A stretch of DNA of 64,000 nucleotides from Escherichia coli. Its GTDB lineage: Bacteria > Pseudomonadota > Gammaproteobacteria > Enterobacterales > Enterobacteriaceae. The stretch lies in the NCBI RefSeq assembly GCF_017348835.2, contig NZ_CP071375.1; one strand, given 5' to 3'. Positions 27,301 through 30,300 of the stretch are shown one piece after another. Each line of letters starts with the position of its first letter. Position 1 is the stretch's first letter. The position numbers are program-made.

Positions 27301-30300
27301 AATGGTAACTGAACGTACGGCCCATAACCCACGCCATAATGACCAAGCGTACTACCGAAGCGGTGAGGTTCAGTCCGTTGCAGTTTCGGGTTCGCCATCC
27401 CTGCAACATCAATAAAGCCGCCCATCCCCAAAATGGTGTTCAGGAAAAAGCGGGTAAAGTGGACCATCCCCTGATAAGGGTCGCCCTGCAAGAAGTAGTT
27501 AACCATCACCGCAGGTTCTTCAAGGTTGCCGGTAAAGTTGCTCAAACCGTTACGCGCCGGTTGCGGAACATAATCACGCCAGGCGACAGCGACCGGTCGA
27601 ACAATATACGGGTCTAGTACGTTGAAGTTGAAGTTGTACATGGTGCGGTTGAACCCTTCTAACGGGTCAGAACGCCCTTGCTGATCTGTACCGGAACTCG
27701 CACACCCCACCAGAAGCGTAGTTCCCAGAGCAAGCGCCGACAGGCGAAGCTTCATAAATGTCTCCCTGTTTTTTTATGGCTTATGCAGTTTGCCATCCAT
27801 GACGGAACGATACCGTATCCGCCTGTTTAGGTGTGGGCGATTGTAACAGCACGTCAACTGATGTCCAGACGCCCTGATTTGCTGATTTGATCATAGCCTG
27901 GTAATCGCCGCCCTGTAGGCTACTTGATTCTATGGAAACAGAAAAAGGCAAACGCGGCCTTTTCTACATTTTCAGAGTAACTCCCGCCAGTTGCGAGCAA
28001 AAAAGCCGCTACGCTTTAGCTATACGTGCTAATTCAAGAGAAGAGACCATGGACAACGACAAAATTGATCAACACAGCGACGAAATTGAAGTTGAGAGCG
28101 AAGAAAAAGAGCGTGGCAAAAAAATAGAAATAGATGAAGATCGACTCCCCTCCCGGGCGATGGCAATTCATGAGCATATCCGCCAGGATGGTGAAAAAGA
28201 GCTGGAACGCGACGCAATGGCACTACTGTGGTCAGCCATTGCGGCGGGTCTGTCGATGGGCGCTTCATTACTGGCAAAAGGGATATTTCATGTCGAACTG
28301 GAAGGTGTGCCGGGCAGCTTCTTGCTGGAGAATCTCGGTTATACCTTTGGTTTTATTATCGTCATTATGGCCCGCCAGCAATTATTTACCGAAAACACCG
28401 TGACTGCGGTACTACCCGTCATGCAAAAACCGACAATGAGCAACGTTGGCTTACTTATGCGGTTATGGGGCGTCGTGCTGCTGGGTAATATTCTCGGGAC
28501 AGGTATTGCGGCGTGGGCATTTGAATATATGCCAATCTTCAATGAAGAAACTCGCGATGCATTTGTCAATATCGGCATGGATGTGATGAAGAACACCCCC
28601 AGCGAGATGTTTGCCAACGCGATCATTTCCGGCTGGCTGATCGCCACTATGGTATGGATGTTTCCTGCAGCGGGTGCGGCAAAGATTGTGGTGATTATAT
28701 TGATGACCTGGCTTATTGCCCTGGGTGACACCACCCACATCGTTGTCGGTTCTGTTGAAATCCTCTATCTGGTGTTTAACGGCACGCTGCACTGGAGCGA
28801 TTTCATCTGGCCCTTCGCACTACCTACTTTAGCGGGGAACATCTGCGGCGGCACCTTTATCTTCGCGTTAATGAGTCATGCACAGATCCGTAACGACATG
28901 AGCAACAAGCGCAAAGCAGAAGCACGCCAAAAAGCAGAACGTGCGGAAAACATTAAGAAAAATGATAAAAACCCGGCATAAATGGCGAGGGTTTAAGCAA
29001 TCGAGCGGCAGCGTACTTACCCCGCAGTCCATTAGCGGGTATACTCATGCCGCATTGTCCTCTTAGTTAAATGGATATAACGAGCCCCTCCTAAGGGCTA
29101 ATTGCAGGTTCGATTCCTGCAGGGGACACCAGATACCCTTCAAACCAAATCTACCTTCACCCCGTAAAAGATGGGTTTGGCAGCACACTTGCCCTATATC
29201 TACTCATTTTTACTGCAACAGGTTGAAATCTCAGCACTGTCAGAAAGCGCTGATGACTAAACAGCCCTGGGCCGGGCGATGTAACCATCACACAGAATCC
29301 TGATAGCGAAATATGGCGTGACTCGATACTTCACTCCGCAATGCATTCCTTGATGAATTCGCAGGCCCGTAATACACGGGACAGGTCGCTGAATGACGAC
29401 AATGTCCTGGAAATCAGCGAACCGTGTATCCGGAGTACATTTGAGCGACTGTACCAGAACATGAATGAGGTGTTTGGATTAGGCGATTATTAGCAGGCCT
29501 AAGCATTTTAGTATTATTATTTTCCGGTTGAGGGATATGGAGATATCGACAACAACCGGAAAAAGTTTATGTCTATATTGCTGAAGGTACAGGCGTTTCC
29601 ATAACTATTTGCTCGCGTTTTTTACTCAAGAAGAAAATACCAAATAGCAACATCAGGCAGACAATACCCGAAATTGCGAAGAAAACTGTCTGGTAGCCTG
29701 CGTGGTCAAAGAGTATCCCAGTCGGCGTTGAAAGCAGCACAATCCCAAGCGAACTGGCAATTTGAAAACCAATCAGAAAGATCGTCGACGACAGGCGCTT
29801 ATCAAAGTTTGCCACGCTGTATTTGAAGACGGATATGACACAAAGTGGAACCTCAATGGCATGTAACAACTTCACTAATGAAATAATCCAGGGGTTAACG
29901 AACAGCGCGCAGGAAAGGATACGCAACGCCATAATCACAACACCGATAAGTAATGCATTTTTTGGCCCTACCCGATTCACAAAGAAAGGAATAATCGCCA
30001 TGCACAGCGCTTCGAGTACCACCTGGAATGAGTTGAGATAACCATACAGGCGCGTTCCTACATCGTGTGATTCGAATAAACCTGCATAAAAGACAGGAAA
30101 GAGTTGTTGATCAAAAATGTTATAGAAAGACCACGTCCCCACAATAAATATGACGAAAACCCAGAAGTTTCGATCCTTGAAAACTGCGATAAAATCCTCT
30201 TTTTTTACCCCTCCCGCATCCGCCGCTACGCACTGGTGATCCTGGTCTTTAAAACACATGTTGATCATCATAAATACAGCGCCAAATAGCGAGACCAACC

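What the first reader, a model, noticed from the sequence alone, without database searches (positions are those of the whole stretch)
29132..29572. Unoccupied argW integration site with a 79-codon stop-free frame of unknown origin
No integrase or phage gene follows argW, although the 3' end of this tRNA is a classic integration site. Instead a 440-bp spacer contains a frame (29257..29493, plus strand) encoding LNSPGPGDVTITQNPDSEIWRDSILHSAMHSLMNSQARNTRDRSLNDDNVLEISEPCIRSTFERLYQNMNEVFGLGDY with no plausible start codon and no ribosome-binding site. It looks like the 3' remnant of a gene truncated when the csc segment was acquired or when an element was excised. I do not recognise the protein.
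Basis: seen in the sequence. Interest (0 to 1): 0.4.

Follow-up and report, generated by a model that had tools for sequence, protein, structure and literature searches.

The report
Decayed island-gene scar beside argW
The 440-bp gap between the argW tRNA gene and the sucrose permease gene cscB holds the broken remains of two genes (DUF957 and DUF4942) that normally end a CP4-type genomic island; it is an ordinary, non-functional pseudogene scar carried by about half of all E. coli.

Summary
argW (29057-29131) has no integrase after it, and a 78-codon stop-free frame plus its stop codon spans 29257-29493. Its length alone is not unusual: 815 of 2000 shuffles of the spacer reach it.

The frame does have homologues. 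It matches Pfam DUF4942 (39 bits, cut-off 25). At DNA level it is 74-76% identical to codons 38-149 of intact 281-aa DUF4942 genes. Those genes are the last gene of CP4-type islands (…YeeU-CbtA-DUF5983-DUF957-DUF4942).

The copy is wrecked. It lacks both gene ends and has a 54-bp internal deletion, a 1-bp frameshift and in-frame stops. A fragment of the upstream neighbour DUF957 lies just to its left, in the right order and orientation.

Five alleles show no third-position bias (9:11:6). One allele has a premature stop, and a divergent Escherichia lineage has further deletions.

The spacer occurs in 2640 of 5426 complete E. coli genomes, nearly always joined to cscB. Where prophages occupy argW, it starts immediately after their attR, so this argW site is empty. 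The csc module shared with Citrobacter begins at about 29505, 28 bp after DUF4942 homology ends.

Verdict: a hitch-hiking island pseudogene scar. It is ordinary, and RefSeq already labels it DUF4942.

The parts
29057..29131 (+). argW, tRNA-Arg(CCU). Its last 15-23 bases (29109/29117-29131) are the attachment core used by argW-targeting prophages.
   Evidence: ARAGORN and Rfam tRNA at 63 bits. The same core recurs as attR in K-12 (pawZ), O157, E2348/69 and SCPM8794. It occurs only once in this window.
29132..29179 (.). Unassigned first part of the spacer. It may be a further degraded part of DUF957 or the left tip of the island.
   Evidence: No significant match to island loci L004/L005 or to the K-12 flank. 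It is conserved only among csc-type E. coli alleles.
29180..29200 (+). Remnant of the DUF957 gene, which is the neighbour immediately upstream of DUF4942 in intact islands.
   Evidence: The window matches L005 5590-5610 at 18 of 21 bases (score 27; null mean 17, maximum 24). The SCPM8794 allele matches L005 5584-5610 at 25 of 27 (score 44; null maximum 31) and translates as DSAALLPCI, as in DUF957. The junction with DUF4942 lies at a short ATCGA-type repeat.
29198..29285 (+). DUF4942 remnant, piece 1, corresponding to codons 38-66 of the intact gene. The ancestral frame is interrupted by TAA at 29258-29260 and at 29282-29284.
   Evidence: blastn gives 65 of 88 bases (74%) to L004 6001-6088, E=2e-10. 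tblastn finds it in a different frame from piece 2.
29275..29476 (+). DUF4942 remnant, piece 2, corresponding to about codons 81-149. It joins piece 1 through a 54-bp deletion between two GC[G/A]ATGAAA repeats, and a 1-bp deletion at 29284/29285 shifts the frame.
   Evidence: 76% DNA identity to L004 6132-6334 and L005 6001-6202. 53% amino-acid identity to residues 76-151, E=4e-20 against the local database. Pfam PF13708 profile positions 5-62 of 190.
29257..29493 (+). It is a composite: 9 out-of-frame codons, about 64 ancestral DUF4942 codons, then about 5 junction codons and a non-native stop.
29341..29493 (+). 50-aa ATG ORF inside the remnant. RefSeq/PGAP calls it 'DUF4942 domain-containing protein' in some genomes and leaves it unannotated in others.
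   Evidence: ORF lengths in other alleles range from 44 to 85 aa.
29477..29504 (.). Unassigned junction between the end of DUF4942 homology and the start of the csc module.
   Evidence: DUF4942 homology ends at 29476. Citrobacter csc homology starts at 29505.
29505..29572 (-). 3' flank of cscB, belonging to the csc module. It contains a conserved 11-bp-stem hairpin (29520-29530 pairing with 29553-29563), probably the cscB terminator or 3' stabiliser (inferred).
   Evidence: It is shared with C. amalonaticus at 81-84% identity over the csc module. The fold energy is -17.8 kcal/mol, z=-3.4. The stems are invariant in E. coli, SCPM8794 and Citrobacter.
29573..30820 (-). cscB, the sucrose permease and first gene of the csc block. 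The block replaces dsdC and the 5' part of dsdX, relative to K-12.
   Evidence: K-12 homology stops at 29131 and resumes at 36003 inside dsdX.

Best explanation
The spacer is a non-functional fossil. It holds the eroded remains of the last two genes (DUF957 then DUF4942) of a CP4-44/CP4-57-type integrative island, lying in the right-hand flank of an empty argW attachment site.

Shown:
- The fragment is homologous to codons 38-149 of intact DUF4942 genes.
- A DUF957 fragment lies just upstream, in the native order and orientation.
- Several deletions at short repeats, a frameshift and stop codons have destroyed both genes.
- The sequence drifts without codon-level constraint.
- It is linked to the csc sucrose block in about half of E. 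coli genomes.

Inferred:
- An island once sat at argW in the CP4-57 layout (tRNA, integrase, cargo, toxin-antitoxin, DUF5983, DUF957, DUF4942, attR).
- Arrival of the csc module removed the 3' half of DUF4942 together with attR, dsdC and the 5' part of dsdX.
- Internal deletions removed everything from the integrase to mid-DUF957.
- The scar now does nothing. It persists because it sits between the convergent argW and cscB genes, and phages still use the intact argW core next to it.
For: Homology to DUF4942:
- Pfam DUF4942 scores 39 bits against a cut-off of 25.
- tblastn gives 53% identity to residues 76-151, and a second piece in another frame matches residues 38-65.
- blastn finds two collinear pieces at 74% and 76% identity, overlapping at a repeated GC[G/A]ATGAAA.

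Island context:
- Intact 281-aa DUF4942 genes are the last gene after DUF932, antirestriction, RadC, DUF987, YeeU, CbtA, DUF5983 and DUF957.
- The DUF957 remnant lies upstream in the same orientation.
- In K-12 CP4-57, int sits next to ssrA and the toxin-antitoxin end is co-directional and next to attR. That matches the orientation seen here.

Decay:
- Substitutions among 5 alleles fall 9:11:6 by codon position, and the R32 allele has an in-frame TAG.
- Divergence of the remnant (0.018-0.094) is close to cscB dS (0.029-0.171) and far above cscB dN (0.001-0.009).
- dN/dS against intact paralogues is 0.35-0.42, compared with 0.10 between intact paralogues.
- The SCPM8794 allele carries extra deletions and is only about 70% identical, while its cscB is 90% identical.
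- Annotated ORF lengths vary from 44 to 85 aa.

Population and position:
- The spacer is in 2640 of 5426 genomes, and 2614 carry it contiguous with cscB.
- It follows attR directly in strains with a prophage at argW.
- The Citrobacter csc module lacks the remnant and any nearby tRNA, and its homology starts at 29505.
Against: - No integrase, toxin-antitoxin gene or second att copy survives in this window, so residence of the island at argW is inferred from position and orientation only.
- I found no genome with an intermediate, longer version of this remnant.
- The nearest intact relatives are only about 54% identical in protein, so the progenitor lineage is unsampled.
- In loci L004 and L005 the DUF4942 end lies next to an intact tRNA in the opposite (convergent) orientation. 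The CP4-57 layout is therefore not the only one these islands adopt.
- The first 48 bp of the spacer and the 28-bp junction remain unassigned.
Confidence: 0.85

Rival explanations
1. The remnant did not decay in place. It arrived already broken, as the left edge of a larger foreign block (remnant plus csc) that replaced the argW-dsdX interval by recombination or specialised transduction from a donor in which csc lay beside a CP4-type island.
For: - The whole interval 29132-36002 differs from K-12, starting at the first base after argW.
- The remnant and cscB are almost perfectly linked in the population.
- CP4-type islands can carry sugar-use cargo: the ET670 island has LacI-type regulator genes, alpha-galactosidase, an MFS transporter, a GH32 hydrolase and a PfkB kinase fragment.
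- Four records filed as phage genomes contain argW, the spacer and cscB, so this segment is sometimes found together with phage DNA.
Against: - The Citrobacter csc module ends at 29505 and 35812, with no DUF4942 or tRNA nearby. The remnant is therefore not an intrinsic part of the module.
- The orientation and the position directly after the argW core fit an island integrated at argW.
- No donor context was found.
Confidence: 0.3
2. The 50-68-aa ORF that RefSeq annotates is a real, expressed small protein: a domesticated N-terminal piece of the DUF4942 domain.
For: PGAP calls it a CDS rather than a pseudogene in many genomes. The frame is open in most alleles examined.
Against: - It covers only 58 of 190 profile positions.
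- No Shine-Dalgarno motif precedes the ATG (sequence).
- Annotation is inconsistent, with 'none' in many genomes.
- ORF ends vary from 44 to 85 aa.
- There is no third-position bias, and one allele has a premature stop.
- Large deletions occur in SCPM8794.
- The promoter scan is at chance level.
Confidence: 0.03
3. It is a chance open frame in ordinary intergenic DNA, or a structured RNA or regulatory element for argW or cscB.
For: A 78-codon open run is reached in 41% of shuffles. A conserved hairpin lies at 29520-29563.
Against: - Significant homology to DUF4942 at both protein and DNA level.
- No Rfam family apart from the tRNA.
- The fold of 29128-29230 is not better than shuffles, z=-0.4.
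- The hairpin belongs to the csc module and lies outside the remnant.
Confidence: 0.02

Closest known systems
DUF4942 (Pfam PF13708) genes at the end of CP4-type islands of E. coli, for example WP_370602201.1 in strain ET670 and WP_001280481.1 in Z1323HEC0399
   Same: Homologous over codons 38-149, with 74-76% DNA and 53% protein identity. The same upstream neighbour (DUF957) is present in the same order and orientation.
   Different: The window copy lacks codons 1-37 and 150-281. It has a 54-bp deletion, a 1-bp frameshift and stop codons, and it evolves without codon constraint. It is a pseudogene fragment, not a gene.
Cryptic prophage-like island CP4-57 of E. coli K-12 (ssrA-intA … yfjZ-ypjF-psaA)
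   Same: The layout is the same: the tRNA-like gene comes first, and the toxin-antitoxin end is co-directional with it and lies next to attR. That is the orientation of the remnant relative to argW. K-12's copy is also eroded at this end and has no DUF5983, DUF957 or DUF4942 genes annotated.
   Different: Here nothing but about 300 bp survives. There is no integrase and no attR, and the attachment gene is argW rather than ssrA.
The variable argW-dsdCXA / csc region of E. coli (Jahreis et al. 2002 and Moritz & Welch 2006, as cited in PMC11251922 and PMC3032704)
   Same: This is the same locus. The csc regulon lies between argW and a truncated dsdX, and argW is a hotspot for prophage integration.
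   Different: The passages on this locus that I read in those two papers do not mention the DUF957-DUF4942 remnant. Moritz & Welch 2006 could not be read, and I did not try to read Jahreis et al. 2002.
Prophages that integrate at argW: CPS-53/KpLE1 in K-12, the O157:H7 element, the torI-carrying prophage of E2348/69, and Stx2 phages
   Same: They use the 3' end of argW, and in csc+ strains their attR abuts this spacer.
   Different: None is present in the window. The remnant is unrelated to these phages.

Membership tests
DUF4942 (PF13708) protein family | Sequence scores above Pfam's gathering threshold | tested here: met
   39 bits against a cut-off of 25, E=8.9e-10.
DUF4942 (PF13708) protein family | Complete domain (about 190 positions) in an intact ORF of about 280 aa | tested here: not met
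   Only profile positions 5-62 of 190 are present. The intact gene covers positions 1-189. Both ends are missing, and the copy has a frameshift and stops.
DUF4942 (PF13708) protein family | Purifying selection on the coding frame | tested here: not met
   Substitutions fall 9:11:6 by codon position and one allele has a premature stop. dN/dS is 0.35-0.42, against 0.10 between intact paralogues. The sample is small (5 alleles, 64 codons).
CP4-44/CP4-57-type integrative island | Conserved terminal gene order …DUF957 then DUF4942, on one strand | tested here: met
   Both remnants are collinear on the + strand, matching L004 and L005.
CP4-44/CP4-57-type integrative island | Tyrosine integrase next to the target tRNA | tested here: not met
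   No ORF of that kind lies between argW and cscB, which are only 441 bp apart.
CP4-44/CP4-57-type integrative island | Direct repeat of the tRNA 3' end (attR) at the far boundary | tested here: not met
   The core occurs once in 64 kb with up to 3 mismatches allowed.
Unoccupied attB of argW-integrating phages | Intact tRNA whose 3' flank equals the sequence found after attR in lysogens | tested here: met
   The O157, E2348/69, R32 and SCPM8794 alleles have the prophage, then the core, then the same spacer from its first base.
csc sucrose module | Sequence shared with independent csc loci such as C. amalonaticus | tested here: not met
   This holds for the remnant at 29132-29476, because homology starts at 29505. 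Only 29505-29572, with the hairpin, belongs to the module.

The most novel reading that the evidence does not exclude
The scar records an order of events. A CP4-type island was integrated at argW in the ancestor of all csc+ Escherichia. The csc module then landed inside its last gene, or was delivered by that island. The sucrose-versus-D-serine polymorphism of E. coli would then have originated on a mobile island, and the event could be dated from the neutral decay of the remnant.
Probability: 0.2. Interest if true: 0.3.

Novelty: already known. Interest (0 to 1): 0.1.

Why it matters
It matters little.
- It removes an 'unknown protein' from the list.
- It shows that the short 'DUF4942 domain-containing protein' CDS called in many RefSeq E. 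coli genomes is best treated as a pseudogene fragment.
- It gives a precise left boundary for the csc module (about 29505) and for the csc/dsd replacement block (29132-36002 in this window).
- It marks the argW site here as empty and available to argW-integrating prophages, a group that includes Stx2a-converting phages.
- At most it is a small historical marker for how the csc haplotype arose.

Tried and rejected
- Shared motif with K-12. I suspected that the TAGCAGGCC and TTTATCCC motifs meant the K-12 argW-dsdC flank and this spacer share ancestry. Local alignments score within the shuffle null, so I rejected this.
- ISEc46 strain. The strain whose match starts only at 29494 (H40) seemed to mark an ancestral junction. 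It is an IS200/IS605 insertion with an adjacent deletion, so it is not informative.
- YoeF. K-12 YoeF at the end of CP4-44 is not a comparable DUF4942 fragment; tblastn gives no match.
- Right-hand junction. The segment 35813-36002 (csc module to dsdX') shows no similarity to DUF4942 or the island ends.
- Closer intact progenitor. None was found by the word-indexed search, which returned only the same short E. coli remnants. The exhaustive HMMER search found at best about 54% identity, and the plasmid tblastn at best 54%.
- RNA and signals. Rfam finds nothing but the tRNA. Promoter and terminator scans are at chance level.
- Literature. Moritz & Welch 2006 (PMC1698345) is not held. The four papers that mention DUF4942 do so once each, and I did not open them.
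- First script. It failed on a file path and was re-run. The first dN/dS attempt used the wrong frame (last lines) and was corrected.

Full report
**Where we are.** The window is E. coli. The spacer is 100% identical to strain PE164, and the local gene order is fadL, a hypothetical gene, mlaA, yfdC, argW, spacer, cscB, cscK (split by an IS3-family element), cscA and cscR. ARAGORN places tRNA-Arg(CCT) at 29057-29131. cscB occupies 29573-30820 on the minus strand. Compared with K-12, homology stops exactly at 29131 and resumes at 36003 inside dsdX. This is the published situation: the csc regulon lies between the variable argW region and a truncated dsdX (PMC3032704; PMC11251922).

**Checking the observation.** The frame 29257-29493 exists: 78 sense codons and a TAG stop, preceded by TGA. 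Its length is not informative, because 815 of 2000 dinucleotide shuffles of the 441-bp spacer contain a stop-free run at least as long. No integrase or phage gene follows argW, and the argW 3' core occurs only once in the window. An internal ATG at 29341 gives a 50-aa ORF, which RefSeq annotates in PE164 as 'DUF4942 domain-containing protein'.

**What the frame is.** The translation matches Pfam DUF4942 (PF13708) above the gathering score: 39 bits against 25, covering profile positions 5-62 of 190. A sensitive DNA search of 5426 complete E. coli genomes finds full-length paralogues at 72-76% identity. Two of these were inspected. They are 281-aa and 280-aa genes, and each is the last gene of a CP4-type island. 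The preceding gene order is DUF932, antirestriction, RadC, DUF987, YeeU antitoxin, CbtA toxin, DUF5983, DUF957 and then DUF4942; upstream of that run lies an Ag43 adhesin gene in L004 and other cargo in L005.

A second piece in another frame aligns with residues 38-65.
- blastn gives window 29198-29285 to L004 6001-6088 (74%) and window 29275-29476 to L004 6132-6334 (76%).
- The two pieces overlap on a motif, GC[G/A]ATGAAA, that occurs twice in the intact gene. This is the signature of a 54-bp deletion between short repeats.
- A further 1-bp deletion at 29284/29285 and two TAA codons interrupt the ancestral frame.

So the remnant is an internal piece, codons 38-149 of 281. It is not a 3' end, and the TAG at 29491 is not the native stop.

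**The left part of the spacer.** The stretch 29180-29200 resembles the DUF957 gene, which precedes DUF4942 in intact islands. The window matches at 18 of 21 bases. The allele of a divergent Escherichia genome (SCPM-O-B-8794, L009) matches at 25 of 27, with a score of 44 against a shuffle maximum of 31, and it translates as DSAALLPCI as in DUF957. The DUF957/DUF4942 junction lies at another short repeat. Two neighbouring island genes are therefore represented in native order and orientation. That makes an island origin much more likely than a stray gene fragment. The first 48 bp (29132-29179) and the 28 bp at 29477-29504 could not be assigned.

**Is it functional?** The evidence says no.

- Among five alleles, substitutions in the frame fall 9:11:6 on codon positions 1, 2 and 3, and the R32_14_1F allele has an in-frame TAG.
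- Divergence of the remnant between strains (0.018-0.094) tracks the synonymous divergence of the adjacent cscB (0.029-0.171). It is an order of magnitude above cscB's non-synonymous divergence.
- dN/dS against intact paralogues is 0.35-0.42, compared with 0.10 between intact paralogues.
- In SCPM8794 the remnant has three additional deletions and is only about 70% identical, while cscB is 90% identical.
- ORFs called on this remnant in public data range from 44 to 85 aa, and many genomes have no call at all.
- Rfam finds nothing but the tRNA, promoter and terminator scans are at chance, and 29128-29230 folds no better than shuffles.

**Population and context.** The spacer is present in 2640 of 5426 complete genomes, at 90-100% identity and one copy per genome. 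In 2614 genomes it is contiguous with cscB. Prophages occupy argW in O157:H7, E2348/69, R32_14_1F and SCPM8794. In each of these the attR copy of the tRNA 3' end is followed by this spacer from its first base. The window therefore carries an empty attB, and the spacer is its right flank. In K-12, the 95 bp after attR (pawZ) are unrelated to the spacer.

**Relation to csc.** C. amalonaticus carries a csc locus that is 80-84% identical in DNA. In two strains, homology with the window runs from 29505 to 35812, interrupted only by the IS at 31105-32410. There is no tRNA gene and no DUF4942 homology in those loci. The last 68 bp of the spacer belong to the csc module. They include a stable hairpin with invariant stems (29520-29530 pairing with 29553-29563, z=-3.4), which is probably the cscB terminator. 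The end of DUF4942 homology (29476) is 28 bp from the module's edge, which fits truncation of the gene when csc arrived.

**Most likely history (inferred).** An island with the CP4-57 layout was once integrated at argW. In K-12 CP4-57, int lies next to ssrA, and the toxin-antitoxin end is co-directional and adjacent to attR. The csc module replaced the 3' half of DUF4942, attR, dsdC and most of dsdX. Deletions at short repeats removed the rest of the island down to the tRNA. The resulting scar has since drifted and hitch-hiked with csc.

The alternative is that the broken fragment came in with a larger foreign block. This cannot be excluded. I found no intermediate state, the closest intact relatives are only about 54% identical, and CP4-type islands can carry sugar-use cargo. 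In L004 and L005 the DUF4942 end faces an intact tRNA in the opposite orientation, so island layouts vary.

**Verdict.** The remnant is internal rather than 3', and its family is known. It is an ordinary pseudogene scar at a well-known hotspot, already labelled DUF4942 in RefSeq. Interest is low.

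Noticed in passing
window 25532-26605 (+): A 357-aa ORF with 31-36% GC, rich in Asn, Asp and Ile and containing a DIDIDIDI run, lies between fadL and mlaA. That is the position of yfdF in K-12. It has no Pfam match. It is annotated 'hypothetical' in PE164, a longer version occurs in strain 2014EL-1345-2, and it is absent in isolate 323_BP0014, where fadL is followed directly by mlaA.
   Followed up: partly
window 31105-32410 (inverted repeats 31103-31127 and 32388-32412): An IS3-family insertion sequence (two ORFs; rve integrase core) splits the fructokinase gene cscK. 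The csc homology with other strains is interrupted exactly here. From memory, the inverted repeats look like IS629/IS1203; I did not test this.
   Followed up: partly
window 29520-29563: A conserved hairpin with an 11-bp stem lies immediately 3' of cscB. Its stems are invariant in E. coli, a divergent Escherichia lineage and C. amalonaticus, while the loop varies (z=-3.4). It has no U-run, so it is not a textbook intrinsic terminator.
   Followed up: partly
window 35813-36002: A 190-bp segment between the right edge of the Citrobacter-shared csc module (35812) and the truncated dsdX (from 36003) has no assignable origin. It shows no similarity to DUF4942 or the island ends.
   Followed up: partly
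phage records ON470608.1, ON470622.1, ON470589.1, ON470594.1: Four records filed as Escherichia phage genomes contain the spacer and cscB, and two of them also contain argW. This is host flank DNA. In at least three of them a feature labelled 'A-kinase anchor protein 5' lies in the matched region, and the label looks like a spurious annotation. They may be prophage-boundary mis-assemblies or specialised transducing genomes.
   Followed up: no
L020 (E. coli ET670, NZ_CP100930.1 1128600-1172000): A CP4-type island ending in DUF957-DUF4942 next to tRNA-Ile carries a raffinose/sucrose-like cluster (a substrate-binding-domain regulator gene, alpha-galactosidase, an MFS transporter, a GH32 hydrolase and a PfkB kinase fragment) and a galactan-utilisation cluster. 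Such islands can therefore carry sugar catabolism genes.
   Followed up: no
L006 (E. coli O169:H41 2014EL-1345-2) 4957-7000: In this strain a truncated integrase and an ISEc46 (IS200/IS605, tnpA plus tnpB) replace the whole remnant. The match to the spacer resumes exactly at window 29494, one base after the frame's TAG.
   Followed up: partly
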